A stretch of 64,000 bases of DNA from positions 26,026 through 90,025 of the forward strand of contig CANHHA010000005.1 of NCBI GenBank assembly GCA_947460825.1, read 5' to 3'. The first letter of the stretch is position 1; every line of letters starts with the position of its first letter. This DNA is from Flavobacteriales bacterium. GTDB taxonomy: Bacteria > Bacteroidota > Bacteroidia > Flavobacteriales_D > Crocinitomicaceae. Below, one piece after another: positions 2 to 60,472 of this stretch. A program made the position numbers and the translations under genes. The notes under the pieces were generated by a model. The model saw nothing but the letters and a program-made list of their open reading frames with translations, ran no database searches and was not told where the DNA came from.

Positions 2-2698
2 TCCAAGAATATTACCTTTACGGAAGAAGGTCCAGATAATATTGGTGGACGAACACGTGCAATACAAGTGGATCGAACCAATATCAACCGTGTTTGGGCT
101 GGAGGCGTATCAGGCGGTCTGTTTGTATCTCTAAACAAAGGAAATACATGGAACCGCGTGGAAGAATATTTTAATGCGTTAGCCAATCCGTTCATTTCAT
201 CCATGACGCAAACGATTGATGGCGTGTTGTATGTTGCAACAGGGTCAAATCAAGAGCCTTGGGGTGGAAATGGGGTTTGGTATTCAACAGATTTCGGCGC
301 AACGTGGGACAATGTTCCAAACACGACCAACTGTACACAAATCGTAAGCTCCGATGCGGACAACTACGTATTTATGGCAACTACCGGAGGCTTGAAAAAG
401 TGGAAACTCGGAGATGCAACAATGACTTCAGTACCTGTAACCGCTGGCTCATGTACCGCTTTGGAAATGTCCAAAGACGGCCAGGTGATTATTTGTGCCT
501 TTGGTGCCAACACTACCTATGTTTCGACCGATGGTGGCGCGAATTTCTCTAACAAATCAGGAACTGCAGCAAACAATTTAGTGCCGTCAAATGCACCTCG
601 AATCGAGTTTGCGGTTTCAGCGATAAAAAATAGTACTAATCGTCATTCGCTTTATGCGGTAAGAACGAATTCCAACCTATTAAGTATGCACGTTTCGCAT
701 GATGATGGGGCAACATGGACACAATTCGTAGGCGCTTCAGGGCCTCCAAGTGAGTTCGATATTTTCCGTGACCAAGGTGGTTACAATTCTATCGTAACGG
801 TAGTTCCTAATGATCCGGAGCAAATTTTGATCGGTGGAATTGATATTTGGAGATGGAAGCAAACGGTTAATAATCCACCATCCGGCGGGTTCCAAAAAAT
901 CTCTTTATGGTCTGTTCCACAAAATGCGTCGATTTATGTGCATGCTGATAACCATGAAATGAAATGGGATAGCAATAACCGTTTTTATGCTGGAAATGAT
1001 GGGGGAGTAAGCATTACAACTGATTACGGTAACACATGGTTTGTCGCAAACAGGGGATACAACGTAACACAGTTTTACGGAATCGCATTTGACCGAGACG
1101 GTGCAGTAATGGGAGGAGCACAAGATAATGGTACTTTGTATAATAATCATACCTTATCTACGTACAAAGAATTCAGAGAAGTAGGTGGTGGTGATGGTTT
1201 TGAGTGCGAAATTTCTTATTTCAACCCTGCGGTCATGATTTCCACTATTTATTACAACACCATTTCTAGATCAGGCGATAAAGGAAATACATGGAGTACC
1301 TTTGCACCACTTTTACCTGGATCATATGATCCACCGGGAACAGATGGCAGCCCGAACCACCCGTTCCATACGGAAGTTTTCTTAGCGGAGTATTTCGATC
1401 CAAATTCAGAAGACTCAGTAACTTTTGTTTCTACCAAGAATTATGACTCGGGCGATTTGATTAGAATTCCAAGTTTATCCTCAGGAGATTCAATCAACTA
1501 CTTTGCTGCAACAGACTTGTATTTTGATGATACCTTGTTATACGATCCGGCTTTAACTGCCAATGGAATTAACTATGGTCAAAATTTGGCAACGGGTGAA
1601 TTGGTTGAAATGGGAAGTGATACTGTTGTATACAACGTAGCTTGGGATACCTTGAAAGTAGCTGACCCATTCCAATCTTGGTTTTTAGTGTATGTGAATG
1701 CGAATGGCGGAGAGTTATGGGGAACACGTAACGCATTGCGTTTAGCAGTAACAAATGCGCAATGGGTTTGCGTTGCTAGAGGCATTGGAAATACAGGGGG
1801 TTATTCTAACGTAGATGGATCTTTTGATATCGAATTCTCTAAAGATTTAGAGCATTGCTATCTGGTTGCCGGAAACGGGGTTTGGAGAATTAATGGCCTA
1901 GGTAGTGTGTATTCAAGCGATCCTAATTTCACATCGAAGGTAGCCTTCGTGGGAACGGGAGCGCAAGCAACTACTCCTTCCTATACTACAGCAACAAAAA
2001 TTTCAGCTACGAACTATGAAGGCATCGCTGTTAATCCATCTGATAAAAATGATATCGTGCTGTTTGCTGGATTTAGCGGAACCAATAGAAGGTCTTTAAA
2101 TGCCACTGCTGCTGCGCCAACGTTCACTGCACTCGGAAGTATTATTCCTGGATCTCAACCTGGATGCTATGATGGTATTATTGATCGCGATGATCCAAAT
2201 ATTATCGTGGTAGGTACTTCGGAAGGAGCTTTCGTTACTGAAAATGGTGGTGCTTCTTGGGAAAATGCTTCTGCTGGATTTGAAGGTACGCCGGTGTTTG
2301 AAGTACGTCAGAGTTGGAGAACCTTTCAAGAGGGAAATAACCGACCTGGAGAAATCTATATTGGAACATACGGGCGTGGTATATGGAAAACAGAGGCATA
2401 CCTCGGAATTGGTGAACATGGTTCAAATAGTAACCCATCAATGGAGGCTAAGTTGCTAACCTATCCGAATCCGTCGAATGCAAATACCACCCTTTCGTTC
2501 GAATTGAACAAAGGAGGGGCAGTAGAGGTTTCAGTTTATTCAATTACCGGACGATTGGTTAAGCAAATTAAAAAATCAAACATGCCTTCTGGTGAAAATG
2601 AGGTGTTTATCAATTCGGAGGATTTACCAAATGGTACGTACATCATCAAATTGGTTTCTGGAAAACAAAATCAGTCTGTGAAATTCATGAAATTGTAA
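2..2698 (+). CDS. Secreted BNR/Asp-box beta-propeller repeat protein with T9SS C-terminal sorting domain (5' end outside window)
   Basis: The frame is open from nt 2, with no stop before the track's GTG at 68, so the gene is truncated by the window edge. It has six Asp-box-like motifs (STDFGATW, STDGGANF, SHDDGATW, TTDYGNTW, SGDKGNTW, TENGGASW). The last ~80 aa (LTYPNPSNANTTLSFEL...IIKLVSG...KFMKL) resemble a Bacteroidota type A Por/T9SS sorting domain. Confidence 0.7.
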   Translation, partial: SKNITFTEEGPDNIGGRTRAIQVDRTNINRVWAGGVSGGLFVSLNKGNTWNRVEEYFNALANPFISSMTQTIDGVLYVATGSNQEPWGGNGVWYSTDFGATWDNVPNTTNCTQIVSSDADNYVFMATTGGLKKWKLGDATMTSVPVTAGSCTALEMSKDGQVIICAFGANTTYVSTDGGANFSNKSGTAANNLVPSNAPRIEFAVSAIKNSTNRHSLYAVRTNSNLLSMHVSHDDGATWTQFVGASGPPSEFDIFRDQGGYNSIVTVVPNDPEQILIGGIDIWRWKQTVNNPPSGGFQKISLWSVPQNASIYVHADNHEMKWDSNNRFYAGNDGGVSITTDYGNTWFVANRGYNVTQFYGIAFDRDGAVMGGAQDNGTLYNNHTLSTYKEFREVGGGDGFECEISYFNPAVMISTIYYNTISRSGDKGNTWSTFAPLLPGSYDPPGTDGSPNHPFHTEVFLAEYFDPNSEDSVTFVSTKNYDSGDLIRIPSLSSGDSINYFAATDLYFDDTLLYDPALTANGINYGQNLATGELVEMGSDTVVYNVAWDTLKVADPFQSWFLVYVNANGGELWGTRNALRLAVTNAQWVCVARGIGNTGGYSNVDGSFDIEFSKDLEHCYLVAGNGVWRINGLGSVYSSDPNFTSKVAFVGTGAQATTPSYTTATKISATNYEGIAVNPSDKNDIVLFAGFSGTNRRSLNATAAAPTFTALGSIIPGSQPGCYDGIIDRDDPNIIVVGTSEGAFVTENGGASWENASAGFEGTPVFEVRQSWRTFQEGNNRPGEIYIGTYGRGIWKTEAYLGIGEHGSNSNPSMEAKLLTYPNPSNANTTLSFELNKGGAVEVSVYSITGRLVKQIKKSNMPSGENEVFINSEDLPNGTYIIKLVSGKQNQSVKFMKL

Positions 2699-47479: not shown

Positions 47480-47514
47480 TGTGGCGAGAATTACAAATTG
47501 TATTTTTGAACATC

Positions 47515-49695: not shown

Positions 49696-50709
49696 ATGGA
49701 TTCGTTAACACAGATTGTATTAGGAGGCGCAATTGGGGAATTAGTTGCCGGAAGAAAAATGGGGAATAGGGCAGTGCTCTGGGGAGCGATCGCCGGAACT
49801 ATTCCAGACTTAGATGTATTCTTTCGCGTGTTCTATCATCCGATTGAGGCGGCATTGGTTCACCGTGGATTTTCCCACTCCTTACTTTTTTCCCTGTTAC
49901 TATCGCCATTGCTTGGTTTGATATTAAATAGGGTTACGAAGGGAACCCTCGGATTTTGGTTGTGGACGCAGCTGTTTTTTTTGGGAATTGTAACCCACCC
50001 AATTCTCGATATGTTTACCAATTATGGAACTCAATTCCTGTGGCCATTTGAATCAAGAATAACCTTCAATTCAGTATTTGTAATTGACCCCTTATACACG
50101 GTTCCATTTATGGTGCTACTCATTTGGGCGATGCGATTGGATAGAAATAGCGCAACAAGAAGAAGACTAAATCGAATCGGATTGATTTATTCTACCGCTT
50201 ATTTGTTCTTGGGTCTACTGATTAAATGGTTTGTTTGGACGGAATCTCAGGCCTATGTAAAAGCACATCACTTGAAGGTGAATCGCATGATGGTTACGCC
50301 AATGCCTTTTACGTGTTTTTATTGGTATGTGTTAGGGGAGAATAATGATCAATACGTGGTGATGCACCGATCAATTTTTAATGATCAAATCACAGATAAG
50401 CCCGTGGTCATTGACCGTGGACCTTGGAGAATCCGGCATTTATCGTGGGCAGGAACTAATCACAACCGGGACTTACATCGGTTTACTTCGGATTTTTGCT
50501 TAATTCAGGAACAAGGACAAAGGTTGCGTGCCTATGATTTGCGCTTCGGGTATACCGGTAAGTTCACCCAGGAAATAATAAATATCCCGATAATGGGCTA
50601 TGAATTTGCGTTGCGTGATCAGAAGATTGTGAATACCAAGATGCTGCGATTGGCGCCTTGGGGGGCACTCGATTTTAATTATTATTGGAGTAAGGTATTA
50701 GGGAATTAA
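49696..50709 (+). CDS. Membrane-bound metal-dependent hydrolase (YbcI/DUF457 family)
   Basis: The family signature is MDSLTQIVLGGAIGE...GTIPDLDVFF...HRGFSHS. Several TM segments are present. Confidence 0.7.
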   Translation: MDSLTQIVLGGAIGELVAGRKMGNRAVLWGAIAGTIPDLDVFFRVFYHPIEAALVHRGFSHSLLFSLLLSPLLGLILNRVTKGTLGFWLWTQLFFLGIVTHPILDMFTNYGTQFLWPFESRITFNSVFVIDPLYTVPFMVLLIWAMRLDRNSATRRRLNRIGLIYSTAYLFLGLLIKWFVWTESQAYVKAHHLKVNRMMVTPMPFTCFYWYVLGENNDQYVVMHRSIFNDQITDKPVVIDRGPWRIRHLSWAGTNHNRDLHRFTSDFCLIQEQGQRLRAYDLRFGYTGKFTQEIINIPIMGYEFALRDQKIVNTKMLRLAPWGALDFNYYWSKVLGN

Positions 50710-50719
50710 ACGATTATCG

Positions 50720-51253
50720 TTACTCAACTGCTTCTATATATGCTTTGATAGTCGTTAAGTATTCTTTAAATCTAGGGAGGCGATGGGTATCGTTGACTTG
50801 GAGCACCTGTAGTTTATTCGTCGCGTCTGATTTCCATGTTGAATGATTAATAAGTTCATCTTGCATGGGACAAATTAATAGGGCATGCGTAGGGTATTCA
50901 ATCTTAATTAATTGAGGGATTAAGCGTTTGGGGAAATTGAAGTCAATGATTCGTTTTGAAAGATCCAGTAAGGGAGCTGATAAAATTAATTTCGTTTGTA
51001 GTCCATTCAAGGTACGTTTATCCCTCAGCTGATAAGCGAAATTAGCCCCAGTGGAATCTCCAAAAACGATGAGTTGGTTGTTGTTTTCAAATGAGGTGTA
51101 GGTTTGTGATATAAGGCGTTCAATATTTGAATGTTCCGTCCATTCCATGCAATGAAAATCAAACATATCAGGGAAGAAAGCCTGCAAAGCCAGAAATTTA
51201 GTGGAGTTCCGATCAGAGCCTAATCCGTGTATGTATAGCAAGGGTGGGGGCAT
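50720..51253 (-). CDS. YqiA-like small alpha/beta-hydrolase (esterase), gene 10 of the operon
   Basis: It has LLYIHGLGSDRNS, the nucleophile elbow G-D-S-T-G (FGDSTGANFA) and a C-terminal NDTH. The product is 177 aa. Confidence 0.55.
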   Translation of the reverse strand: MPPPLLYIHGLGSDRNSTKFLALQAFFPDMFDFHCMEWTEHSNIERLISQTYTSFENNNQLIVFGDSTGANFAYQLRDKRTLNGLQTKLILSAPLLDLSKRIIDFNFPKRLIPQLIKIEYPTHALLICPMQDELINHSTWKSDATNKLQVLQVNDTHRLPRFKEYLTTIKAYIEAVE

Positions 51254-51262
51254 GTCTTTATG

Positions 51263-51733
51263 TTAATTTGACATATTTGAGTACCCGATCATGGTATTAG
51301 CAAGAATCGTAATTGGTGAACTTAACACGTAACACAACAATACAAAAACGACTCCATGGGTTAAGGCTAAAATGATGTTGTTTTTTCCTAATTCAGCTTT
51401 TTCATTTTCTGGTGTTGTCAAATTCATTAAAAGAAAACTGAAGCGAAATAAAAGAAACGAAAAAACAAAGGCGATCAAGGCAAAAAGTAAATAGAATGCA
51501 ATTGCATTAAACCAATTCCCTGAACTTGTATAAAAAAAGAAGGAACTGACGGCAATTTCTGAAAAATCATGTAAGTTGATTCCAAAACCGATTAAGGTAC
51601 ATATTAACAGAATTCCTGTGGCGTGATTGAGTGGGTTAGTTATTTTTCGAAAAAAAGAGGAGAGAATCCTTGTGGCTAACATCAGGTAGAAAATGGTTAC
51701 CAGTGCCGCAATTATTACATTTAGTGTTTCCAT
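51263..51733 (-). CDS. Small 4-TM membrane protein, gene 9 of the operon
   Basis: The 156 aa product has four hydrophobic helices. I recognise no family. Confidence 0.4.
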   Translation of the reverse strand: METLNVIIAALVTIFYLMLATRILSSFFRKITNPLNHATGILLICTLIGFGINLHDFSEIAVSSFFFYTSSGNWFNAIAFYLLFALIAFVFSFLLFRFSFLLMNLTTPENEKAELGKNNIILALTHGVVFVLLCYVLSSPITILANTMIGYSNMSN

Positions 51734-51745
51734 AGTTATTTATTT

Positions 51746-52669
51746 TTAATTATAAGTTACTTCCCAATTAATCCATACCGACCACATGCGCATATTCCCA
51801 AGTTGAAAGGTGGTAGAATAATTTGTTGTCTCCCAAGGATAATACATTTCACCCCGAAAGGTAAGATGTTTACTAGGAATTACCGGTGGATAACCTGCGA
51901 CCCCTAGCATGGCATGACCGCCTGGAGTTTCATTGTTTGAGTAGGCCGCTATTCCCGTAAGCATTGCCGCACGAACCCCTTGCATTTTTAGCAATGCATA
52001 ACATATCAATGATTTTGTATCGCAATCCCCTGTTCTCGCAAAAATAAATTCTGTTGGAGTATATATAGCAAACGGATGAATGTATCCGCAACATCCACCA
52101 GGTTGACAAGAGCCCTGATTACCACAGCCTTGGCTTTCGATGTAGGTATACTTCGGGGTTTGTATGGCGGTAATCACAAAATCTAATCGTTCCTGTCCCG
52201 TTAACCCTCTTAGGTTCATTTCTTTTACTAATGCCTCATTGAGTCTATACAGTGGGATTTTACATGCACTTATGAAATCACGATAAAGTTGAGCTTCTCC
52301 CGTAAAAATATATCCTTCTCTAAAACCTTTAGCCTTTTGAAGTTCTTCTTCAGGAACGCTAAAAGACACATCGCAAGAATTCCCATCATAGTCTACCCAT
52401 TTCCAATGGATGAATTTCATTTTTCTTCTAAGCGTATCTTTTCTTATTTTATTGGTATCAATAACATCAATAAAATTCGAGGTGTCTTTTGCGATATAGA
52501 ACGAATCAACTGCGACAATGGTAGTATCAAAACGATTATACCAGCGATCGAAATCTTGATCACTAAAAAAGGGGTTATTGAACATAGGGAATACATAAAG
52601 TATTATTAATCCTAAGGTTAACCAAAAGAGCAAATTCAATGACCTGAAAAGTGATTTCTTTTCTTTCAT
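51746..52669 (-). CDS. N-terminally anchored protein with transglutaminase-like Cys-His-Glu core, gene 8 of the operon
   Basis: It has an N-terminal TM (LLFWLTLGLIILYVF) and a Cys-rich stretch (GCGNQGSCQPGGCCG). The motifs GDCDTKSLICYALLKMQG, then GGHAMLGV, then YYPWETT follow. These are shared with the 57961-58911 product. Confidence 0.5.
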   Translation of the reverse strand: MKEKKSLFRSLNLLFWLTLGLIILYVFPMFNNPFFSDQDFDRWYNRFDTTIVAVDSFYIAKDTSNFIDVIDTNKIRKDTLRRKMKFIHWKWVDYDGNSCDVSFSVPEEELQKAKGFREGYIFTGEAQLYRDFISACKIPLYRLNEALVKEMNLRGLTGQERLDFVITAIQTPKYTYIESQGCGNQGSCQPGGCCGYIHPFAIYTPTEFIFARTGDCDTKSLICYALLKMQGVRAAMLTGIAAYSNNETPGGHAMLGVAGYPPVIPSKHLTFRGEMYYPWETTNYSTTFQLGNMRMWSVWINWEVTYN

Positions 52670-53640
52670 TTTGAGCCTAGGGTTTCGGAGTAATTGTATT
52701 CCGTTTCTATGTTGTGTTTAACCCGTTGTATTTCTCGGGTTGAAAGCAAATGCATGAGTAAGCTGGTACTAATTGCATCAATGGTAACATGTTTTAATAA
52801 TTCGCCACCTGATATTTCATCACTTTTCTTCACTAAAATGTAAGGAATTAGAAACACACAAGCAAATAATAAGTCGATCAGTACTTTCGTATTCCCGATA
52901 CCCGCCATTAACACATCAAATGTCATAAGTAAGGAATGGCAATGAATGAGTTTGAACGCTTCTCCCGTTGAATTATCTACCATCTTTAGTGTCCAATAAG
53001 CTTCCATTTTTTGCTCATTAAACGTTGTGTTTCCTTGTTGTTGGTAGTCTTTTGCTAGATGATTCAATTCAGTTGAATGTTTAATTTCTTGAAATTTTTC
53101 ATTGAGTGAGTGTCGGAACATCCAAATTTCAATAGCACTGGCAACAATGAATGATAACAATAAGGCAAGGGAAACAATGGACGCCGAAATTAATAACTGA
53201 GAGAGATGGAACGGATTGGGTTCAGTTTTAATGTGAGATGCACTGGCAGTTATTCTATAATTACTTACAATCTCTAACGCTTCTTCATCTGATAAGGTCG
53301 TCATGTTTAGCCCTTTATAGTCATTGTATAAACTTTCCATATCAGAAAGCTGTTCTTTTAAATTTCTATATCGAGTTTGTAATGAAAGGAATAAAAGTAA
53401 TTGAAGCAATAAAAAAAACACACCACCTAAGAAAATTCCGCAGGCGATTGCCAGTCCCCAATGGTTGAATAAAACAAGACCAAAGATTAGACCCGATGCA
53501 GTACCTAATAACGCTAAAACGATCAACATTAGCCCCAACATATTGAAGATGAATGTTTGCCTGCGCGCTACTTCCTCAGGTAAATGGTTTAGAAGCTCCT
53601 TCCGTATGCCGAATATGTAAGTTCCGATTATCATGGGCAA
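52666..53640 (-). CDS. Polytopic membrane protein, divergent DUF4407-like, gene 7 of the operon
   Basis: It has two N-terminal TMs, a coiled-coil linker and further TMs. FIVASAIEIWMFRHSL parallels LTISAPLETYIFKREI of the 55832-57199 product. It lacks the NLDRF motif. Confidence 0.4.
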   Translation of the reverse strand: MPMIIGTYIFGIRKELLNHLPEEVARRQTFIFNMLGLMLIVLALLGTASGLIFGLVLFNHWGLAIACGIFLGGVFFLLLQLLLFLSLQTRYRNLKEQLSDMESLYNDYKGLNMTTLSDEEALEIVSNYRITASASHIKTEPNPFHLSQLLISASIVSLALLLSFIVASAIEIWMFRHSLNEKFQEIKHSTELNHLAKDYQQQGNTTFNEQKMEAYWTLKMVDNSTGEAFKLIHCHSLLMTFDVLMAGIGNTKVLIDLLFACVFLIPYILVKKSDEISGGELLKHVTIDAISTSLLMHLLSTREIQRVKHNIETEYNYSETLGSK

Positions 53641-54737
53641 AAAATATCAATAGTCCATTCTGTGGTTTCGAATTCCCTACTCGGTATAACCCGCACTAGC
53701 AATTCAGTAGGTTTGTTTTTATTGTAATGGTAATCGAATTTCAATTCACCATTGCCTTGTGCGTACCCCATGGGAACTAAATAATCCAAATTATATTTTT
53801 TCCTATTTACAGTAATTGGATTAAAACGCTGATCGTTAGTAAGGGCAACGAGTTTGCCATCATAAATCACTTCAATCCGATCCGGAATTTCATACATTTC
53901 ATAACGTAAACGCAAAGTGCCGCTCTGTTGACCTAAATCAAAGGTGTACGATTTGGGCGTATTTTTTCCATTGGGATCACTGATTTTACCACACGGTGTT
54001 GTTTCTTTTTTAGTCTTTTCAATCTTTTCTAGGAGTTTGTCTTTCTTTTCCTGAAGTTTTGAAATTTCTTTTTTTTCTTTCCAAGCATCGTAGTAACAAT
54101 GTAAGGTACGCCCGAATTGAGTGCACTGACCGAGCAATCCCAATAGTAGCAGCAATAGTAATAAGTAAAGCAACCATTTTAAGCACCCAGAAGGCGTATT
54201 ACAGCCTCCCGGAGAACATCCGCTAAGGGAGTTTTGGATGCCCTTTCCTAACCCTCGATTACACCCGCCATTCTTTGACCACTTTTGATCGTTCCACTGA
54301 TTTTTAGCATATCTATTTTCCTCGGGCTCATCGCGCGTACCAACGGATTCGTCAAAGTCCATTTGACTCACTTTTGAGAAAACTGTTCCTTTGAGCGTAG
54401 CAATGGTTTTATCATTCATCCGAGTTACTTGGCAAACCTCAACATCCGCTAGTTTCATGCCGTGTAGCGAAAAGATGGCATCATTCGTTAAAGGCCAATA
54501 GGGTGAGCGTTGAATTTCTATGTTTTTTACTTCATTGAAGTTCAATGAGCTCAATGCTTGTTGGTATTCTTCTTCAGTAATTTGTGTGGAATGAGAAATG
54601 ATTCCTCTATGAATCGTGATTTTATGCTCGTTACCAGCGGGGATGATTGATGAAGTAGTCAATGGTTCTTCTTGAAGGGTAGTAAATGTTCCTTCAAATG
54701 CACCTTTAACTAGATATTTATATGCTCCTATTCCCAT
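53631..54737 (-). CDS. Bitopic protein: N-terminal domain, Cys/Gly-rich segment, poly-Leu TM, coiled coil, unknown beta-rich C-terminal domain. Gene 6 of the operon
   Basis: It is a paralog of 54740-55804 over the first ~230 aa. The key segment is GCSPGGCNTPSGCLKWLLYLLLLLLLLGLLGQC followed by KEKKEISKLQEKKDKLLEKIEKTKKE. The C-terminal domain is unrecognised. Confidence 0.5.
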   Translation of the reverse strand: MGIGAYKYLVKGAFEGTFTTLQEEPLTTSSIIPAGNEHKITIHRGIISHSTQITEEEYQQALSSLNFNEVKNIEIQRSPYWPLTNDAIFSLHGMKLADVEVCQVTRMNDKTIATLKGTVFSKVSQMDFDESVGTRDEPEENRYAKNQWNDQKWSKNGGCNRGLGKGIQNSLSGCSPGGCNTPSGCLKWLLYLLLLLLLLGLLGQCTQFGRTLHCYYDAWKEKKEISKLQEKKDKLLEKIEKTKKETTPCGKISDPNGKNTPKSYTFDLGQQSGTLRLRYEMYEIPDRIEVIYDGKLVALTNDQRFNPITVNRKKYNLDYLVPMGYAQGNGELKFDYHYNKNKPTELLVRVIPSREFETTEWTIDIFCP

Positions 54738-54739
54738 GC

Positions 54740-55804
54740 TTATTGCTTTCTTACTCTGATGGTAACTTTCATGTTCTGATTGTATTCACGGGTTCCCCTA
54801 TCATCCATAAATTTGTACAAGGGCATGGGGATTGCATCTTTGTTTTGTCTTCCAACGACAGTAATTCGTTGTTCATCAATACCTTTTAAGGTCAGAATAT
54901 GTTTGATTTTTTCAGCGCGTTTAATATCCAATCCTGTTGATTCAATAGATTTGTCATCTTGATGACCTTCTAACACAAAAGATTTATCGTCATAGGTTTC
55001 AATAACTTCTGCTAGACGATCTACGGTGCCGTTCATTCCTGTGGAATTAATATGGATATCGGTTGAATTTCTATAAAAATAAATGGTAGATACATTTGCT
55101 AAGGCATTTTTTAGATTCAAATCATATTGCTGTTTTGTTTCTTTAACTTCTTTTTCCTTTTCTATTCTTTCCTTTTTGGCAAGATCAGCATTAACACAGG
55201 CCTGCTTATCATTTGCAATGTGATTGCATGCACGAATCAACCCCAAAAGCAAAAGCAACAGGAGAAGTAACCCCAGGATTTTCCAAAAATTCGTTTTACA
55301 CCCCTGATACAACGTGCCACACCCATTAATACCGCTGTTTACGCATCCATTATTCGATTGATACCATGGTTGATTGTCGCTATATCCTGAATCGTTAAAT
55401 GGATCTGGCCTAAGTTTCTTTAGTTGTGGCGAAGCATAGGTTTTACCATAAGCCATCGATTCTACCTCCCCATAGGTTTCGCCATCGATGTCGTAGGTTT
55501 TGATAATCTTAGGTTCTACCAAGATTAATTGAGTAAAGGTAAAAAGTTGATTTCCAATGAACGGGCCATGTTGCCCGGGGTTTATGGTAACGTTTGGGAC
55601 ATTAGAGAGCACAAAACTTTTGAGTTTCCGATAATCTTGAGGTTTGAATTCAGTAAAAAACTCTGAAGCATCAAGGGTTCCTTGATATACTTGTACCGTA
55701 TGGGTGTTATCGGTTGGCGGGCTATCTGCCCGTCCTAAGAACCCACGTTGTTTAGTTTTAAAGTTACCTCTAAACTTACCGTAGACGATATGAGGACCAG
55801 TCAT
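54740..55804 (-). CDS. Bitopic protein with C-terminal OmpA/MotB-like peptidoglycan-binding domain, gene 5 of the operon
   Basis: The central segment is NNGCVNSGINGCGTLYQGCKTNFWKILGLLLLLLLLLGLIRAC followed by a coiled coil. The C-terminal part is OmpA_C-like (IYFYRNSTDI...VLEGHQDD...RAEKIKHILTLKGIDEQRITVVGRQNKD). Confidence 0.6.
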   Translation of the reverse strand: MTGPHIVYGKFRGNFKTKQRGFLGRADSPPTDNTHTVQVYQGTLDASEFFTEFKPQDYRKLKSFVLSNVPNVTINPGQHGPFIGNQLFTFTQLILVEPKIIKTYDIDGETYGEVESMAYGKTYASPQLKKLRPDPFNDSGYSDNQPWYQSNNGCVNSGINGCGTLYQGCKTNFWKILGLLLLLLLLLGLIRACNHIANDKQACVNADLAKKERIEKEKEVKETKQQYDLNLKNALANVSTIYFYRNSTDIHINSTGMNGTVDRLAEVIETYDDKSFVLEGHQDDKSIESTGLDIKRAEKIKHILTLKGIDEQRITVVGRQNKDAIPMPLYKFMDDRGTREYNQNMKVTIRVRKQ

Positions 55805-55831
55805 TTAATCAAAATATAGGGATGACTTCGC

Positions 55832-57199
55832 TTAATCGTTCTTCACAAATTTATTTGGGTCCTTATCAATTTCCTCCTTTTCTTTGGCGGCATACAGGCT
55901 CATCGCATGTTTCGCATTTTCCTTTTCCAAATCATTTTGATGTTTTGCAACCTCGGCAATACGCATGGCATTATAGTTTTCACGATATCTGTGCATGTTA
56001 TTGTTCTCATCAATTACTTCATGCAAGGAAATTCCTTGCTTAGCTTCAAGAATTTGTTCAACATTTTGTTGCATCCAATCATATGAAGACTTGTTCAACA
56101 TGAATTTGAAAATTACAGGAGCCACCTCAATAATCATGAAAAGAATTCGGACTAACCAAATCGGTGCAGAAGCTTTACCGTAGATTTCATCCTCCTTTCC
56201 TTTGATTACTTCATTGGTAACAGGATCAAATTTGGCAACTTTTTTACCAGTATGTGCCAAGCGTTCAAGCATCATGATTTGATCCAAAAAACCAGGTTTT
56301 GAAGCTAAGACCTCTTTCGTTGATTTTTCTTTTTGTTTTTCAACTTCAGCCTTGAATTTTTCTTTTTCTTTTTCAATTGTTGCAAGCTCCTCTCTAAGTC
56401 TGTTTAACTCTTGAAGTTCCAAATCTTTAATCCGCTCTTTCTTTTTTGCTACGGGGCCGTCTCCCCAACCATTACCTGTATTTTTACCGCTCAATTCATC
56501 CTGATATTCCTGATTTGCCTTGTCGTACTTTTCTTGTTGTAACTTTACTTGTTTATCTTTTTCTTCAAATTGAGAATGAGTTCGTTTATTAAGGTTTATG
56601 TTCTCTTGTTCAATACGATACTCTTCGCTTAGCGCAAGTTGCTTCATAGATAACTTCCATTCTCGGTATATTTCGCGTTTAAAGATATAGGTTTCCAAAG
56701 GCGCTGAAATGGTTAATCCAATCACAATAGCCATAAAAAGCCTCGGTGCCATTGCTAATAGTTCGCTTGATTTTCCTTTTTTAGGTAGGATGGTTATATT
56801 CTCTGTTCCATCGCCTTTAACCGTGGAAACAATGAATCGGTCTAGGTTAAAAATAATTAGCCCCCAAATAAGAGCAACGGGGACAGTAATCCATAGATTA
56901 CCTTTGAGTGCAACCTCCCCAGTAATGGGGTCAATAGCACCGCTGGGATCCGGACTAGCAAAAATTGTTTGCATCGCAAATCCCATCGCCAACACAGCCA
57001 TTACCGTAGTAGCAAGAACCACTCCACCAATTCCCGCATGTTTTATATGGTCAGAATACGGCGCGAATTCCAGGATTTTTTTGTCAGAACCTCCACATTT
57101 CCATAAAGTTTCCATGATGAATTTCATGAAAGGACTGTATTCTGTTTTTTTGTAATCAACTAGTTCATTCATCTCAATGGATTTATTGTTCTCGCTCAT
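55832..57199 (-). CDS. DUF4407-like polytopic membrane protein with long central coiled coil, gene 4 of the operon
   Basis: The N-terminal part reads CGGSDKKILEFAPYSDHIKHAGIGGVVLATTVMAVLAMGFA...GLIIFNLDRFIVS. A ~130 aa Lys/Glu-rich coiled coil follows, then a C-terminal TM. The family assignment is from memory of the DUF4407 pattern. Confidence 0.6.
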   Translation of the reverse strand: MSENNKSIEMNELVDYKKTEYSPFMKFIMETLWKCGGSDKKILEFAPYSDHIKHAGIGGVVLATTVMAVLAMGFAMQTIFASPDPSGAIDPITGEVALKGNLWITVPVALIWGLIIFNLDRFIVSTVKGDGTENITILPKKGKSSELLAMAPRLFMAIVIGLTISAPLETYIFKREIYREWKLSMKQLALSEEYRIEQENINLNKRTHSQFEEKDKQVKLQQEKYDKANQEYQDELSGKNTGNGWGDGPVAKKKERIKDLELQELNRLREELATIEKEKEKFKAEVEKQKEKSTKEVLASKPGFLDQIMMLERLAHTGKKVAKFDPVTNEVIKGKEDEIYGKASAPIWLVRILFMIIEVAPVIFKFMLNKSSYDWMQQNVEQILEAKQGISLHEVIDENNNMHRYRENYNAMRIAEVAKHQNDLEKENAKHAMSLYAAKEKEEIDKDPNKFVKND

Positions 57200-57968
57200 T
57201 TGTTTTATTTTTAAAAGGTTTATTCTCGGTAATTAAGGTGCCGTTGTATTTGGAAGGGTTGAAATTATACCCTTTTACAATTTTTTGCTCTCGAATGTAG
57301 CTATTTATTTCATTTTTAATTGGATTATCTACCATTTTAAGTTGTAAACGTTTTGAAACATCGCTCATTCGTTTGTACTTAGGCACCAATTTCTTGAAAA
57401 GCGAAAAAGTATATGAAGTAGTATGAGATTTACCGTTGAATTTCGAGTACCCTGTTTTATTTACTAGAACCCTAGATTCAGGTTGGTTAAACGCGTTTGA
57501 GCCCCCCAAATGACGTGTGTTTAAGCGTACCACTAACTCATCTGGAATACATAGTTTTTGCGCTATTTTCCCTTTGAAGGTATAGGCATACAAGGTATAA
57601 ATATTTCCTTTTTCTCGAATTACGGTTATTAAACTGTTTTGTTTAAGTTTAGCATAATCGGGATTGATATCAATTCGATAGGCTCCCTTTACTTGCCATG
57701 TTAAAATAATGGGACAGCCGATGTACACTAAGCCTTGACTTGGATGATAGTAGTATTCCTTCTCTTCTGCTTGATGGATTAAATAATCTGGAGCTATTCG
57801 CCAACTGAAATCTACGATTTCCGGAGATTCATTCGTGAAAAATATAATTAGAATCCGTTTTATTAAACCATAATACGGAATAATCGCCATGAACAAGCAT
57901 AAACCAATAAAAATAGCCCACCCCTCCATGGGAGAAAAGGTCCCGAACCACTTGAATACCTCAACCAT
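57183..57968 (-). CDS. N-terminally membrane-anchored hypothetical protein, gene 3 of the operon
   Basis: It has a TM (GWAIFIGLCLFMAIIPYYGLI) followed by a ~200 aa soluble domain with no motif I recognise. It overlaps both neighbours, by 8 nt and 17 nt. Confidence 0.4.
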   Translation of the reverse strand: MVEVFKWFGTFSPMEGWAIFIGLCLFMAIIPYYGLIKRILIIFFTNESPEIVDFSWRIAPDYLIHQAEEKEYYYHPSQGLVYIGCPIILTWQVKGAYRIDINPDYAKLKQNSLITVIREKGNIYTLYAYTFKGKIAQKLCIPDELVVRLNTRHLGGSNAFNQPESRVLVNKTGYSKFNGKSHTTSYTFSLFKKLVPKYKRMSDVSKRLQLKMVDNPIKNEINSYIREQKIVKGYNFNPSKYNGTLITENKPFKNKTNEREQ

Positions 57969-58911
57969 GGAATGTTAAGTTAAAAACATGAATATTCTCA
58001 AAATTGATTTGTTGTTGTTTTTCTAAGGATATCGGAGCGGTTGTTTCTAGCAATAAATAGGATTTTCCGTTGTGGAGGTGTGTTCTACCAGGGAAATTTA
58101 ATCCATGAACCCCTACAATCATATGATGCACTTCTTCCATGGTACAATGAACCATGATTATATTTTCAGATGCATTATCAATTAACTCTTTTAAAATACC
58201 ACAGAACAATACGGACTTGCTGTCGCAATCGCTATATGAAATTACAAATGATTCATGCGGCATGGATACCCCAAAATATGCATATGCTCCGGCGTTAAAA
58301 TTTGGTTGGCCATAGGGTATAAATTGAACAAAATTCAATGCAGCCATAACTCGGTTATCATAAGAATCATTGGAGCCAAGTTCCTGAACGATAAATGTTG
58401 CGATTTCTTTAGATAAATTTACGGACAATCGAATGATCTCGTTAAAATCCACCCCATAATCGTACGTTTGATTAGATCGATAAAAAAAACCATCGCGATT
58501 CATGTGTTCATGCAAATATTGTTCATCCGTGGTTTGAATTGCATAGTATCCATCAGATACAGGCGCAAAGCAAGAGTTGTGAACACCAAAACCACTAACT
58601 AATTCGGACATTTCTGCTGTTGATATTTCTGTTCGAAAGGTTACATTAGCTTTATTCGTAAAAGGAAAGGTATATCTAAATGTAGCCTTTTCACCCAAAA
58701 TACTGCCTTCTACATTATATCCATAGCTAGCGTAGGAACCTGGAGCTGTCCGATAATTTTTAGGCTTACTTGCCTTGGTAGTTAGTTGCTCAATAATTAA
58801 AAGATTATCATGTCCAGCAATGGAAGCACCTTTTATTTTGAATGTAAAGCCCGTGTTCAAGTAGATAACACAGGCAACTAACATTAACATATAAATATTG
58901 AGTTCTGACAA
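57961..58911 (-). CDS. N-terminally anchored protein with transglutaminase-like Cys-His-Glu core, gene 2 of the operon
   Basis: It has a signal/TM (IYMLMLVACVIYL). The motifs SDCDSKSVLFCGILKELI, then VHHMIVGV, then YLLLETT follow. They are in the same order and spacing as in the 51746-52669 product. Confidence 0.5.
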   Translation of the reverse strand: MSELNIYMLMLVACVIYLNTGFTFKIKGASIAGHDNLLIIEQLTTKASKPKNYRTAPGSYASYGYNVEGSILGEKATFRYTFPFTNKANVTFRTEISTAEMSELVSGFGVHNSCFAPVSDGYYAIQTTDEQYLHEHMNRDGFFYRSNQTYDYGVDFNEIIRLSVNLSKEIATFIVQELGSNDSYDNRVMAALNFVQFIPYGQPNFNAGAYAYFGVSMPHESFVISYSDCDSKSVLFCGILKELIDNASENIIMVHCTMEEVHHMIVGVHGLNFPGRTHLHNGKSYLLLETTAPISLEKQQQINFENIHVFNLTFHG

Positions 58912-58927
58912 AATGAATTTCGATCGA

Positions 58928-59140
58928 TTAATCTTCCCATTTCACTTGAAACTCTAGTTCGTGAGACCCCTCAGAACGTTCGTGCTCAATGGAAAAGGTT
59001 GCACCGTCAGGAACATAAACAGCCTCACCTGCAACGGAGATTCTGAAATTCTCATTTTTTTCGATGCAATCCGCGAGTCTTCTTAATTTACTTACAAACT
59101 CTTCTTTGGTGTAGGTTTTTTCAACGTCTCTTTCTTCCAT
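58928..59140 (-). CDS. Amphi-Trp domain small protein, gene 1 of the operon
   Basis: The 70 aa acidic product has the pattern (E/K)..S.EEF...LR.LAD.IE....F...V.GE.V.VP.......E.E.......ELEF.VKW, which matches the amphi-Trp domain as I remember it. Confidence 0.6.
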   Translation of the reverse strand: MEERDVEKTYTKEEFVSKLRRLADCIEKNENFRISVAGEAVYVPDGATFSIEHERSEGSHELEFQVKWED

Positions 59141-59205
59141 ATTTGTGTTTTTACGAAAATAAGATAATTATTAGGATGTTATGTATCTTCACGAAAAAAA
59201 TCAGT

Positions 59206-60388: not shown

Positions 60389-60462
60389 GGTCCTATAGCT
60401 CATTCGGTTAGAGCAACTGACTCATAATCAGTAGGTGCTTGGTTCGATTCCAAGTGGGACCA
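60389..60462 (+). tRNA. tRNA with CAT anticodon (elongator Met, or Ile2 read via lysidine)
   Basis: A hand-folded 74-nt cloverleaf gives acceptor GGTCCTA/TGGGACC, D arm GCTC/GAGC and anticodon arm ACTGA-CTCATAA-TCAGT. The T arm is CTTGG-TTCGATT-CCAAG and the discriminator is A. No CCA is encoded. It is not an initiator, since the anticodon stem has no GGG/CCC. The C4:G69 and C5:G68 pairs are the E. coli TilS determinants, so Ile2 is possible. Confidence 0.85.
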
Positions 60463-60472
60463 CACCACCCTA

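What the first reader, a model, noticed from the sequence alone, without database searches (positions are those of the whole stretch)
50720..59140. Ten-gene, translationally coupled operon of uncharacterised membrane/envelope proteins: candidate undescribed system
Ten same-strand ORFs are packed with overlaps (57961-57968, 57183-57199, 53631-53640, 52666-52669) or gaps of 27 nt or less, so they look like one operon. The order is as follows. (1) An amphi-Trp small protein. (2) An anchored Cys-His transglutaminase-like protein. (3) An anchored 261 aa unknown. (4) A DUF4407-like polytopic coiled-coil protein. (5) A bitopic OmpA-like protein. (6) A paralog of 5 with a different C-terminal domain. 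(7) A second DUF4407-like polytopic protein. (8) A second Cys-His protein. (9) A small 4-TM protein. (10) A YqiA-like esterase. Eight of the ten products have predicted TM or signal segments. I see no Walker A motif, nuclease, methylase, integrase or known secretion-system signature. Three paralog pairs lie roughly mirror-wise (2..4-5 | 6-7-8), which suggests an internally duplicated two-module envelope machine. The operon lies in a mosaic accessory stretch, between an insertion scar at 47.5-49.8 kb and a tRNA followed by an AbiE toxin-antitoxin pair. A coiled-coil polytopic membrane protein combined with an OmpA-like peptidoglycan anchor is conceptually reminiscent of stator-like defence systems such as Zorya (ZorA/ZorB). 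No MotA/ExbB-type motif is visible, so this would be something different. Any function (phage defence, envelope stress sensing, antagonism) is inference.
Basis: partly seen in the sequence, partly recalled or inferred. Interest (0 to 1): 0.85.

Follow-up and report, generated by a model that had tools for sequence, protein, structure and literature searches.

The report
Uncharacterised eight-gene envelope membrane cassette
Eight of the ten genes form a conserved, previously undescribed set of cell-envelope membrane proteins that, in sister lineages of freshwater Flavobacteriales, sits in one gene array with the motor ATPase and small helical proteins typical of type VII protein secretion, so it may be the unknown membrane machinery of a type VII-like export system in a two-membrane bacterium.

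Summary
The ten co-directional, overlapping ORFs exist as described. The conserved unit is eight genes (g2–g9, 51263–58911, minus strand), and these are exactly the eight with TM segments. They keep the same order in more than 40 loci at 26–95% identity. g10 is a local flank gene. g1 (amphi-Trp) is often linked to the cassette but has a different history.

Two of the three claimed paralog pairs hold (g5/g6 and g2/g8). The g4/g7 pair is supported only by position. No known defence family matches, and nothing supports a Zorya-like stator.

New findings:
- In the sister clade, the cassette usually lies in one array with an EssC/EccC-type ATPase and WXG100-like proteins. This is the type VII secretion signature.
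- The window's own clade lacks that array within the available flanks, yet all eight genes are under purifying selection.
- The central coiled-coil of g4 is hypervariable and exchanged by recombination.
- g8 and g2 are transglutaminase-like Cys-His enzymes.
- The periplasmic domain of g6 is a β-sandwich also found in phage virion proteins.

Best reading (about 0.4): it is the membrane and periplasm apparatus of an undescribed type VII-like system, here as a stand-alone copy. Rivals are an autonomous envelope defence system or an envelope-maintenance system.

The parts
57961..58911 (-). g2: N-terminally anchored transglutaminase-like Cys-His protein (316 aa; catalytic-type core at about 58036-58278). 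It is predicted N-out/C-in, so the enzyme domain would be cytoplasmic.
   Evidence: Invariant D228-C229-D230-S-K-S ... H263 ... E289-T-T in 10 orthologues. hhalign to g8: 96.6%, E 4.8e-10. One TM at residues 4-26. Topology follows from the positive-inside rule: no K/R before the TM, K/R-rich after it. This is inference.
57183..57968 (-). g3: anchored 261-aa protein with a conserved ~110-aa beta-type domain (DFSWR...ILSW.V.GAYRIDI) and a basic, variable tail. No family could be assigned.
   Evidence: No Pfam, NCBIfam or PADLOC hit. The alignment shows the conserved core. TM at residues 11-44. Always found between g2 and g4.
55832..57199 (-). g4: DUF4407 protein with 4 TM segments, strongly conserved N- and C-terminal parts, and a central charged coiled-coil-type region predicted to be periplasmic.
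   Evidence: PF14362 at 2.9e-54. TM segments at 52-81, 98-127, 146-173 and 343-370, with loop charges consistent with N-in. Alignment.
56180..56674 (-). Hypervariable, recombining central segment of g4 (aa 176-340).
   Evidence: Window vs L013: N part 97%, C part 100%, centre 44% identical. Window vs L010: centre 99% while the rest of the cassette is 50-70%. L019 vs L020: 93/95% against 29%. dS in the centre is 1.34 against 0.16-0.31 in the flanks (window vs L013). Nucleotide identity is 93.7% in the centre against 80-82% in the flanks (window vs L010).
54740..55804 (-). g5: bitopic protein. It has an N-terminal ~130-aa beta domain (cytoplasmic by inference), a Cys/Gly linker, one TM, a coiled coil and a C-terminal OmpA-like domain (about 54836-55081).
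   Evidence: OmpA PF00691 at 8.5e-7, 29.7 bits, above the cutoff. Pal/YiaD/MotD-type hits in NCBIfam. TM at 169-198. Alignment: R296 is invariant, while the Asp I recall from the canonical GHTD-type motif is not conserved.
53631..54737 (-). g6: paralog of g5 with the same N-terminal domain and TM, but a different C-terminal periplasmic beta-sandwich (about 53640-53990) bounded by two invariant Cys.
   Evidence: BLASTP to g5: 2e-10. AF2 model: pLDDT 80-87 in the C-terminal domain. Foldseek vs PDB: GOLD/PPC/CBM/CUB jelly-rolls. Foldseek vs BFVD: phage virion proteins at E 5e-8, rmsd 1.7-2.3 A, 23-25% identity. The same domain occurs in a secreted Gordonia protein.
52666..53640 (-). g7: 4-TM protein with the same topology pattern as g4 but a short (~70 aa) extracytoplasmic helical loop. 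Probably a strongly diverged DUF4407 paralog.
   Evidence: TM segments at 27-60, 60-89, 143-176 and 243-273. Sub-threshold DUF4407 (3e-4) and SLATT_1 (2e-3) hits. hhalign to g4 is negative. Proteins in the equivalent position in distant modules are clear DUF4407.
51746..52669 (-). g8: N-in anchored, Cys-rich (periplasmic by inference) transglutaminase-like Cys-His enzyme (core at about 51821-52066).
   Evidence: Invariant G-D-C216-D-T-K ... H252 ... W-E280-x-T, plus four further invariant Cys in the nine-orthologue alignment; with more distant members added C216 and C193 stay invariant and C188, C194 are near-invariant. AF2 model: pLDDT 74, pTM 0.68. Foldseek: 3ISR, PeiP pseudomurein endoisopeptidase, TglA, TGases, PNGase, NAT and vasohibin, all with E >= 1.9e-3. 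The family has 1,160 representative clusters.
51263..51733 (-). g9: small polytopic DUF350 (YjfL-type) membrane protein. It is the last gene of the conserved cassette and is tandemly duplicated in many clade II loci.
   Evidence: PF03994 at 7.4e-6, 26.5 bits against a cutoff of 26. TM segments. Duplication seen.
58928..59140 (-). g1: amphi-Trp protein. It is often linked to the cassette but is not part of the unit that moves. It lies 16 nt upstream of g2, so it is probably co-transcribed here.
   Evidence: TIGR04354 at 2e-12. It is 80-97% identical in loci whose cassettes are only 28-59% identical. pS is 0.79 against cassette dS of 0.11-0.40. It is absent or displaced in many loci.
50720..51253 (-). 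g10: small alpha/beta-hydrolase-like protein. It is a local flank gene, not part of the conserved cassette.
   Evidence: Only weak Hydrolase_4/UPF0227 hits. Present only in window-type strains and L019, where it is frameshifted. Absent from L013 and all other loci. No TM segment.

Best explanation
g2-g9 encode one eight-protein complex of the inner membrane and periplasm.

Predicted layout (inferred from topology):
- Cytoplasmic face: the g2 transglutaminase-like domain, the g3 domain, the conserved termini of g4, and the paired N-terminal beta domains of g5 and g6.
- Periplasmic face: a long variable coiled-coil hairpin (g4), two envelope-binding modules (the OmpA-like domain of g5 and the phage-type beta-sandwich of g6), and a membrane-tethered Cys-His enzyme (g8).
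- Polytopic membrane core: g4, g7 and g9.

Proposed function: in the sister clade this cassette is encoded in one co-oriented array with a soluble EssC/EccC-type ATPase and three or four WXG100-like helical-hairpin proteins. The most likely function is therefore the membrane and periplasm apparatus of a type VII-like export pathway specific to Flavobacteriales. The ATPase would dock on the cytoplasmic domains and drive WXG-like cargo through the polytopic core. g5 and g6 would anchor the machine to the wall. g8 would cut or remodel peptidoglycan or cargo, as EssH or MycP do in known type VII systems. The g4 hairpin would reach across the periplasm.

The window carries a stand-alone copy (clade I). 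It has no ATPase or WXG genes within 64 kb, so it either uses a driver encoded elsewhere or has kept an ATPase-independent function of the same complex.

Shown: the gene unit, its conservation, the domain identities, the linkage in the sister clade, purifying selection and the recombining g4 segment. Inferred: topology, complex formation, export function, and the role of each protein.
For: - Unit: g2-g9 keep the same order in all loci with enough DNA.
- Selection: dN/dS is 0.10-0.37 for all eight genes.
- Membrane proteins: all eight have TM segments and the two non-core genes have none.
- Linkage: the array FtsK-like ATPase, WXGa, WXGb, WXGa, p239, p81, FibS precedes g2 on the same strand with small gaps in L028-32, L037-40, L047, L048, L050, L061 and L063.
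- Linkage survives rearrangement: the ATPase/WXG block is downstream of the cassette in L042 and L051, and convergent in L024.
- ATPase identity: its best PDB matches are EccC (4nh0, 2.7e-21), YukB/EssC (1.2e-18) and EccC5 (5e-13), against FtsK at 1e-4. It has one Walker A motif and no TM segment, so it needs membrane partners.
- WXG identity: p96 hits WXG100 at 30.1 bits, above the 27.3 cutoff. The WXGb profile hits HP0062 (3.5e-5) and S. aureus EsxA (2.3e-3). It has the W-x-D motif described for HP0062, which also clusters with an FtsK/SpoIIIE gene (PMC3397514).
- Analogy: T7SSb needs a Cys-His wall hydrolase (EssH) that co-purifies with the core complex and allows EsaA to span the wall (PMC13059805). 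Here g8 is a periplasmic Cys-His enzyme whose structural neighbours include the pseudomurein endoisopeptidase PeiP.
- Binding modules: g5 is OmpA-like. The g6 C-terminal domain is a beta-sandwich shared with phage virion proteins.
Against: - The window has no EssC-like ATPase, WXG-like, p239, p81 or cassette-linked FibS gene in 64 kb.
- None of the ten clade I loci has these genes within 5-8 kb.
- Three clade II loci with 5 kb or more on both sides also lack them (L019, L021, L041).
- Distant relatives of the core (DUF4407 x2, g8, DUF350) pair with other partners instead: TPR proteins, or a STAND NTPase plus TPR. Some lie beside restriction systems.
- No component is homologous to EssA/EssB/EsaA or EccB/D/E/MycP.
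- No outer-membrane component was found for a two-membrane host.
- Linkage is association only. No secretion data exist.
- The structure-based assignments are weak: Foldseek E >= 1e-3 against PDB, and AF2 models built from only 9-18 sequences.
Confidence: 0.4

Rival explanations
1. It is an autonomous envelope-based conflict system (anti-phage defence or superinfection exclusion). The complex would sense or block an invader in the periplasm through the hypervariable g4 coiled-coil and the g6 phage-type binding domain. It would respond through its Cys-His enzymes (wall cleavage or protein processing) and/or by ion leakage through the polytopic proteins g4, g7 and g9. The ATPase/WXG array of the sister clade would be an optional add-on.
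For: - g4 has a hypervariable, horizontally exchanged segment.
- Divergent cassettes replace each other between conserved flanks: L019 vs the window has flanks 86-97% identical and a core 28-51% identical.
- Real defence genes lie nearby at several independent sites: GmrSD and AbiE in the window; GmrSD abutting the cassette in L020 and L050; a TIR protein in L009; Type I R-M plus GmrSD directly upstream in L069, and STAND NTPase plus TPR in L109; DpdF, MTase and KAP NTPase among distant neighbours.
- The g6 domain is shared with phage virion proteins.
- The cassette is maintained without any ATPase in clade I.
- g7 has a weak SLATT_1 hit.
Against: - None of the ten proteins hits PADLOC.
- Most neighbours in most loci are housekeeping or envelope genes.
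- The apparent MADS hits are ordinary ABC transporters.
- No nuclease, NADase or other classic effector is present.
- Eight membrane proteins is an unusually heavy build for a defence system.
- The strong linkage to an EssC-type ATPase and WXG100-like proteins in clade II points to export.
- No enrichment statistic could be computed.
Confidence: 0.25
2. It is an envelope maintenance or stress system. The complex would be wall-anchored and remodel peptidoglycan or cross-link envelope proteins (transglutaminase-type chemistry on both faces). It would stabilise the inner membrane, with DUF350 proteins as found next to PspA-type genes in other bacteria. It would have no dedicated cargo or enemy.
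For: - It has an OmpA-like domain and DUF350.
- It has transglutaminase-like enzymes whose structural relatives include a wall endoisopeptidase.
- Neighbours often encode envelope functions: MMPL, SpoIIM, PrsW and acyltransferase.
- It has no ATPase or toxin.
- The link between DUF350 and the PspA-type yjf operon rests on my own knowledge and was not tested here.
Against: - The distribution is patchy and accessory.
- Cassette alleles are swapped between close relatives.
- The g4 module is hypervariable and recombining. This is not expected for a housekeeping function.
- In clade II the cassette is linked to the secretion-type ATPase and WXG genes.
Confidence: 0.15
3. It is not one functional unit. 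The genes would be independent membrane-protein genes that happen to be adjacent.
For: There are no transcript data. The sigma-70-type promoter scan is uninformative for this phylum.
Against: The eight genes keep the same order, with overlaps or short gaps, in more than 40 loci down to 26% identity and in different genomic contexts.
Confidence: 0.02

Closest known systems
Type VIIb secretion system (Ess/Yuk) of Bacillota
   Same: In sister-clade loci:
- There is an EssC/YukB-like FtsK/SpoIIIE ATPase.
- Several ~90-aa WXG100-like helical hairpins follow it.
- A set of bitopic and polytopic membrane proteins is encoded in the same array.

By analogy:
- g4 is a polytopic protein with a long extracytoplasmic helical part, like EsaA.
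- g8 is a Cys-His enzyme acting outside the membrane, like the CHAP hydrolase EssH (PMC13059805).
   Different: - No homologue of EssA, EssB, EsaA or EsaB is present.
- The ATPase has no TM segments or FHA domains, and only one clear P-loop domain.
- The host has two membranes.
- The small proteins carry W-x-D, not W-x-G.
- The window copy lacks both the ATPase and the WXG genes.
ESX / type VIIa secretion of Actinobacteria
   Same: It has an EccC-type ATPase (best PDB hit 4nh0). It has a membrane-anchored protease facing outwards (MycP there, g8 here, by analogy). It has multiple membrane subunits with cytoplasmic and extracytoplasmic domains.
   Different: There are no EccB, EccD, EccE or subtilisin-type MycP homologues. 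The enzyme here is transglutaminase-like. Two paralogous enzymes are predicted to sit on opposite faces of the membrane.
HP0062 / FtsK-SpoIIIE cluster of Helicobacter pylori (WXG100-like protein in a Gram-negative bacterium)
   Same: It is the best PDB sequence match of the WXGb profile (3.5e-5). It has the same W-x-D hairpin motif and also clusters with an FtsK/SpoIIIE-domain gene (PMC3397514).
   Different: The function of HP0062 is itself unknown. No DUF4407, transglutaminase-like, OmpA or DUF350 cassette is reported with it.
Zorya (ZorAB) and other MotAB/ExbBD/TolQR-type stator systems
   Same: Conceptually, both combine a polytopic membrane protein carrying a long helical extension with a bitopic partner carrying an OmpA-like wall-binding domain. 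g4 has conserved acidic residues in or near its TM segments (D120, E169, E358).
   Different: - There is no MotA/ExbB or ZorA-D similarity in Pfam, NCBIfam or PADLOC.
- The g4 helical region is predicted to be periplasmic, not cytoplasmic.
- g5 has a 170-aa cytoplasmic domain that MotB/ZorB lack.
- There is no ZorC/ZorD-type effector.
DUF4407 (PF14362) family proteins
   Same: g4 is a clear member (2.9e-54). Distant modules carry two DUF4407 genes in tandem.
   Different: The family has no assigned function and almost no literature. The fixed partnership with g8-type enzymes and DUF350 shown here does not appear in the literature I searched.

Membership tests
Type VII secretion system (T7SSa/ESX or T7SSb/Ess) | EccC/EssC-type FtsK/SpoIIIE ATPase encoded with the system | tested here: not met
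   The window has no hit in 64 kb by tblastn with the L028 ATPase or by HMM. Ten clade I loci also have none within 5-8 kb. The feature is met only in sister-clade loci.
Type VII secretion system (T7SSa/ESX or T7SSb/Ess) | WXG100-family small helical-hairpin proteins encoded with the system | tested here: not met
   The window has none. In sister-clade loci, p96 scores 30.1 bits against WXG100, above the cutoff, and the profile hits HP0062 and EsxA.
Type VII secretion system (T7SSa/ESX or T7SSb/Ess) | Canonical membrane subunits (EssA/EssB/EsaA, or EccB/EccD/EccE/MycP) | tested here: not met
   Pfam and NCBIfam scans of all ten products found no such family.
Type VII secretion system (T7SSa/ESX or T7SSb/Ess) | ATPase-dependent export of WXG100-type substrates | not testable with these tools
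   This needs secretome analysis of wild type against ATPase and cassette mutants.
Zorya anti-phage system | ZorA (MotA/ExbB-like) plus ZorB (MotB-like) and ZorC/D or other effector genes | tested here: not met
   PADLOC gave zero hits at E <= 0.1 for all ten proteins. Pfam found no MotA_ExbB. Only the OmpA-like domain of g5 resembles part of ZorB.
Any catalogued anti-phage defence system (PADLOC-DB v2) | Profile match of at least one component | tested here: not met
   no family matched any of the ten proteins.
DUF4407 (PF14362) | Profile match above the gathering score | tested here: met
   g4 scores 184.8 bits against a cutoff of 31.3.
DUF4407 (PF14362), for g7 | Profile match above the gathering score, or profile-profile similarity to g4 | tested here: inconclusive
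   g7 scores 20.5 bits, below the 31.3 cutoff, over 47 aa only. hhalign between the g4 and g7 profiles gives 17%. Positional equivalents in distant modules are clear DUF4407 (best 1.1e-40), and the g7-like protein of L027 has a weak precomputed DUF4407 hit.
Transglutaminase-like cysteine peptidase/transferase superfamily (g2, g8) | Conserved Cys-His-acid triad in the order and spacing of the fold | tested here: met
   C229/H263/E289 in g2 and C216/H252/E280 in g8 are invariant across orthologues.
Transglutaminase-like cysteine peptidase/transferase superfamily (g2, g8) | Significant profile or fold match | tested here: inconclusive
   Transglut_core scores 17.3 bits, below the 23 cutoff. The Foldseek hit list is uniformly of this superfamily, but the best E is 1.9e-3 and TM-scores are about 0.3. 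The PDB sequence-profile search found nothing.
OmpA-like peptidoglycan-binding domain (g5) | Profile match above the cutoff, and conserved wall-binding Asp/Arg residues | tested here: inconclusive
   PF00691 scores 29.7 bits against 27.2. R296 is invariant, but the Asp I recall from the canonical G-H-T-D-type motif is replaced in most orthologues. The motif is cited from my own knowledge.
DUF350 (PF03994, YjfL-type) (g9) | Profile match above the gathering score | tested here: met
   26.5 bits against a cutoff of 26. This is marginal, but it recurs in orthologues.

The most novel reading that the evidence does not exclude
The DUF4407 x2 + transglutaminase-like enzyme + DUF350 core, expanded here to eight genes, is a previously unrecognised trans-envelope machine of two-membrane bacteria. 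It would serve as a modular membrane chassis for different cytoplasmic drivers: an EssC-type ATPase with WXG100-like cargo in freshwater Flavobacteriales, STAND NTPase or TPR partners in marine relatives, and none in the window's clade. In its ATPase-linked form it would be a new type of protein secretion system: a type VII analogue built from entirely different membrane parts. Its specificity would be set by a swappable periplasmic coiled-coil.
Probability: 0.3. Interest if true: 0.9.

Novelty: new variant of a known kind. Interest (0 to 1): 0.78.

Why it matters
Type VII secretion is regarded as a feature of Gram-positive bacteria and mycobacteria, and its membrane machinery is known only there. 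WXG100-like genes next to FtsK/SpoIIIE genes have been noticed in a few Gram-negative bacteria (for example HP0062), but no apparatus has been identified.

This work defines a conserved eight-protein envelope module that travels with such genes in Flavobacteriales. That gives a concrete, testable candidate for how a two-membrane bacterium could run a type VII-like pathway. It also gives a first functional context to three families without assigned function: DUF4407, a family of about 1,160 transglutaminase-like clusters, and DUF350 in this setting.

The hypervariable g4 segment is exchanged between lineages, and whole cassettes are swapped between conserved flanks. Both point to strong diversifying pressure from phages or competitors, which makes the system relevant to microbial conflict even if the export model is wrong.

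Tried and rejected
- **Known defence system.** PADLOC gave no hit for any product. Apparent MADS (mad3/mad8) and AriA hits among neighbours turned out to be ordinary ABC transporters.
- **Zorya-like stator.** No test supported it.
- **Direct g4/g7 paralogy.** BLASTP and hhalign were both negative. Only positional evidence remains.
- **PDB sequence-profile searches.** The profiles for g8, g2 and the shared g5/g6 N-terminal domain found nothing useful.
- **Foldseek for the g6 N-terminal domain.** It gave no assignment, because hits to the full-length model were dominated by the C-terminal domain.
- **"Very rare family" conclusion.** The word-indexed searches found 10 clusters for g6 and 18 for g8. 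This was an artefact of limited sensitivity. The g4-based metagenome scan found at least 428 relatives, and the exhaustive HMM search found 1,160 g8-type clusters.
- **Plasmid or phage carriage.** g4 had no plasmid match. Among phages, only the Lak megaphages carry a DUF4407 homologue.
- **Promoter and terminator scan.** The sigma-70-type scan was uninformative: fewer promoter-like sites than in shuffles, and this phylum uses another promoter type.
- **g1 and g10 as system components.** g10 is rejected. g1 is downgraded to a frequent neighbour with a separate history.
- **Literature.** Searches for DUF4407, amphi-Trp, and type VII secretion or WXG100 in Bacteroidota found no description of this system.

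Full report
**1. What is in the window**

Ten minus-strand ORFs lie at the stated coordinates:

| Gene | Coordinates | Length |
|---|---|---|
| g1 | 58928-59140 | 70 aa |
| g2 | 57961-58911 | 316 aa |
| g3 | 57183-57968 | 261 aa |
| g4 | 55832-57199 | 455 aa |
| g5 | 54740-55804 | 354 aa |
| g6 | 53631-54737 | 368 aa |
| g7 | 52666-53640 | 324 aa |
| g8 | 51746-52669 | 307 aa |
| g9 | 51263-51733 | 156 aa |
| g10 | 50720-51253 | 177 aa |

Library scans gave these results:
- Above threshold: amphi-Trp (g1), DUF4407 (g4, 2.9e-54), OmpA (g5) and DUF350 (g9).
- Weak: Transglut_core (g8) and alpha/beta-hydrolase/UPF0227 (g10).
- No assignment: g2, g3 and g6.
- For g7, only sub-threshold DUF4407 and SLATT_1 hits.
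- No PADLOC hit for any product.

A hydropathy scan finds TM segments in g2-g9 and none in g1 or g10. No product has a Walker A motif.

**2. Paralogs**

- g5 and g6 share their first ~130 residues (BLASTP 2e-10; alignment).
- g2 and g8 share the Cys-His core (BLASTP 2e-4; hhalign 96.6%, E 4.8e-10). The motifs D-C-D-S-K-S...H...E-T-T and G-D-C-D-T-K...H...W-E-x-T are invariant.
- g4 and g7 are not related by BLASTP or hhalign (17%).
- However, in distant relatives the gene in the g7 position is a clear DUF4407. Two DUF4407-type genes per module is therefore the old layout, and g7 is probably a diverged copy.

**3. The real unit is eight genes**

tblastn and HMM mapping on 112 related loci show g2-g3-g4-g5-g6-g7-g8-g9 in this order wherever enough DNA is present. 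Identities go down to 26-30% and the genomic contexts differ.

g10 occurs only in window-type strains and in L019, where it is frameshifted. It is missing even from the closest relative, L013.

g1 is often close by, sometimes displaced or inverted, and it usually forms a divergent pair with a Metallophos gene. It is 80-97% identical where the cassette is 28-59% identical. Against L013 its synonymous sites are saturated (pS 0.79), while g2-g9 have dS of 0.11-0.40. The boundary of the exchanged unit therefore lies between g1 and g2.

In L019 the flanks are 86-97% identical to the window (g1, g10, YdjM), but the cassette is only 28-51% identical. This indicates that a divergent cassette allele replaced the original at one chromosomal site.

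All eight genes are under purifying selection (dN/dS 0.10-0.37, window vs L013).

**4. Distribution**

Word-indexed searches suggested a tiny family: 10 clusters for g6 and 18 for g8. The genome scan found about 10 species-level MAGs, all freshwater Flavobacteriales (Crocinitomicaceae/Cryomorphaceae type), out of 185,579 species. That makes the cassette accessory, not a core locus.

More sensitive searches enlarged the picture:
- g4 has more than 120 clusters at 52-71% identity.
- The metagenome scan confirmed at least 428 relatives.
- An exhaustive HMM search found 1,160 g8-type representative clusters, 240 of them at E <= 1e-30, in short and long forms.

**5. Protein features**

- **g4.** It has four TM segments. 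Loop charges fit an N-in topology, which puts the central ~165 charged residues in the periplasm (inference). That central segment is hypervariable and mosaic. Window vs L013 gives 97% (N part), 44% (centre) and 100% (C part). Window vs L010 gives 99% in the centre while the rest of the cassette is 50-70%. L019 vs L020 gives 93%, 29% and 95%. Synonymous divergence and nucleotide identity show that this comes from recombination with divergent donors.
- **g8.** The AF2 model (pLDDT 74, pTM 0.68) finds only transglutaminase-like superfamily members in the PDB: 3ISR, the pseudomurein endoisopeptidase PeiP, TglA, TGases, PNGase, NATs and vasohibin. The E-values are weak (>= 1.9e-3). Its basic N-terminus and five invariant Cys (two of them only near-invariant once more distant members are added) fit a periplasmic location.
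- **g2.** It has no basic residues before its TM, a basic stretch after it, and few Cys. This fits a cytoplasmic enzyme domain (inference).
- **g6.** The AF2 model has an N-terminal beta domain, a disordered Cys/Gly linker, a TM helix continuing into a long helix, and a confident C-terminal beta-sandwich. The sandwich resembles GOLD, PPC, CBM and CUB jelly-rolls in the PDB. It matches large phage virion proteins significantly (E 5e-8, rmsd 1.7-2.3 A, 23-25% identity). It also occurs in a small secreted Gordonia protein. It is most likely a binding module.
- **g5.** It carries a divergent OmpA-like domain in the position where g6 has the sandwich.

**6. The key lead**

Contexts of g4 relatives and the HMM map show that many cassettes are preceded, on the same strand and with short gaps, by this array:
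- a ~1,085-aa FtsK/SpoIIIE-family ATPase
- three small helical proteins (WXGa, WXGb, WXGa)
- p239 and p81
- sometimes p265 and amphi-Trp
- a Fib_succ_major-domain protein (FibS) that overlaps g2

The ATPase matches type VII secretion ATPases far better than FtsK: EccC 2.7e-21, YukB/EssC 1.2e-18 and EccC5 5e-13, against FtsK at 1e-4. It has one Walker A motif and no TM segment.

WXGb passes the Pfam WXG100 threshold (30.1 bits against 27.3). Its profile hits HP0062 (3.5e-5) and S. aureus EsxA (2.3e-3). It shares the W-x-D hairpin motif reported for HP0062, which also clusters with an FtsK/SpoIIIE gene (PMC3397514).

The link survives rearrangement. The ATPase/WXG block lies downstream of the cassette in L042 and L051, and convergent to it in L024.

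**7. Where the window fits**

A g7 tree splits the close relatives into two clades.
- **Clade I** contains the window, L013, L010/14, L018/52 and L015/16/17/54. It has no FibS, a single g9, and no ATPase/WXG array in any of ten loci within 5-8 kb of flank. For the window itself, none is found within 51 kb on one side and 5 kb on the other.
- **Clade II** has the array adjacent in 13 loci (about 10 lineages). It is absent despite 5 kb or more on both sides in three loci (L019, L021, L041). The remaining loci are truncated.

The window therefore carries a stand-alone derivative.

**8. Deeper relatives**

At about 30% g4 identity, many of them from marine samples, the module is smaller: DUF4407, DUF4407, a long g8 and DUF350. 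It usually has a ~780-aa and a ~636-aa protein (both TPR-containing in L077, where they were scanned) and a ~140-aa protein around it. Examples of other settings are L109, which follows a STAND NTPase plus a TPR protein, and L069, which follows a Type I R-M system with an embedded GmrSD.

Defence genes are scattered among the neighbours of both the close and the distant loci: GmrSD, AbiE, TIR, DpdF, a methyltransferase, KAP NTPase/PifA and SNase. Most neighbours, however, are housekeeping or envelope genes. I could not compute a proper enrichment statistic.

**9. Interpretation**

The shown facts are:
- an eight-gene unit under purifying selection
- proteins placed on both faces of the inner membrane
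- two wall- or surface-binding modules
- two Cys-His enzymes
- a recombining periplasmic coiled-coil
- strong linkage, in one clade, to the two hallmark genes of type VII secretion

The best-supported model is that the cassette is the membrane and periplasm apparatus of a type VII-like pathway. By analogy, g4 corresponds to EsaA, and g8 to the Cys-His wall hydrolase EssH (PMC13059805) or to MycP. The window copy either works with a driver encoded elsewhere or has an ATPase-independent role. I put this at about 0.4.

The main rival is an autonomous envelope conflict system (about 0.25). It explains the hypervariability, the allele swapping, the defence neighbours and the ATPase-less clade better. 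It explains the ATPase/WXG linkage worse. An envelope-maintenance role (about 0.15) fits the domains but not the evolutionary pattern.

**10. Comparison and novelty**

The locus cannot be filed as a type VII system. The ATPase and WXG genes are absent from the window, and no canonical membrane subunit is present. It is not Zorya or any system in PADLOC.

The literature searches found nothing describing this cassette, a type VII-like system in Bacteroidota, or a function for DUF4407 or amphi-Trp.

I rate it as a new variant of a known kind: type VII-like export with a wholly different membrane apparatus. About 0.3 of the probability goes to the stronger reading that it is a new kind of modular trans-envelope machine.

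Noticed in passing
window 47479-47688 (+), 47810-49555 (-), 49696-50709 (+): A 69-aa ORF repeats the first ~45 residues of YdjM (44/45 identical). An Ion_trans channel gene lies between the two copies, which suggests an insertion that duplicated the 5' end of ydjM. L013 shows the same arrangement. Ion_trans genes also recur near distant modules (3 of 103 neighbours).
   Followed up: partly
window 44983-47049 (-), 60389-60463 (+), 60579-62232 (+): A GmrSD type IV restriction gene lies on one side of the cassette. On the other side is tRNA-Met followed by an AbiEi(DUF6088)/AbiEii pair. GmrSD directly abuts clade II cassettes in L020 and L050, and a GmrSD_N protein lies upstream of the distant module in L069.
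   Followed up: partly
Prevotella Lak megaphage records (e.g. MK250019.1 485070-485666): All 15 Lak megaphage records encode a DUF4407 homologue, 30-37% identical to the N-terminal half of g4. The records are unannotated. No plasmid carries one.
   Followed up: no
L023 9671-10222 (Gordonia sinesedis); BFVD entries A0A0K2CPJ7, S5WBF6, A0A6B9LG64: The C-terminal beta-sandwich of g6 (C...IPDRIEVIY...CP) occurs in a 183-aa secreted actinobacterial protein. It is also a module of large phage virion proteins, including one from a Flavobacterium phage.
   Followed up: partly
L064-L112 (e.g. L077 3106-12091, L083, L068, L074): A distinct, mostly marine architecture recurs: a ~780-aa protein (TPR-containing in L077), a ~140-aa protein, DUF4407, DUF4407, a long g8-type enzyme (470-630 aa), DUF350, and a ~636-aa protein (TPR-containing in L077). 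L109 instead has a STAND NTPase plus a 1,180-aa TPR protein upstream.
   Followed up: partly
L019 13957-14477: The g10 homologue is split by a frameshift at about residue 128/129. It is probably a pseudogene there, which fits g10 being dispensable for the cassette.
   Followed up: no
L024 11415-15220 (-): An ATPase carrying both FtsK_SpoIIIE and FtsK_gamma domains lies convergent to the end of the cassette, together with a WXGb-like 96-aa gene. It is unclear whether this is the housekeeping FtsK or a system ATPase.
   Followed up: no
window 58928-60099; L013, L019, L021, L033, L042, L051: The amphi-Trp gene and a Metallophos phosphoesterase gene form a conserved divergent pair. The pair stays near cassettes of both clades even when it is rearranged.
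   Followed up: partly
L028 16410-21115; L019 735-4468: A PrsW-family membrane protease, a 7-TM ~670-aa protein, a ~320-aa membrane protein and an Acyl_transf_3 gene recur beside clade II cassettes, in different orientations.
   Followed up: no
window 62642-63976 (-): A Gly-rich repeat protein with a Por_Secre_tail (T9SS C-terminal sorting) domain lies next to the AbiE pair. It is unrelated to the cassette.
   Followed up: no
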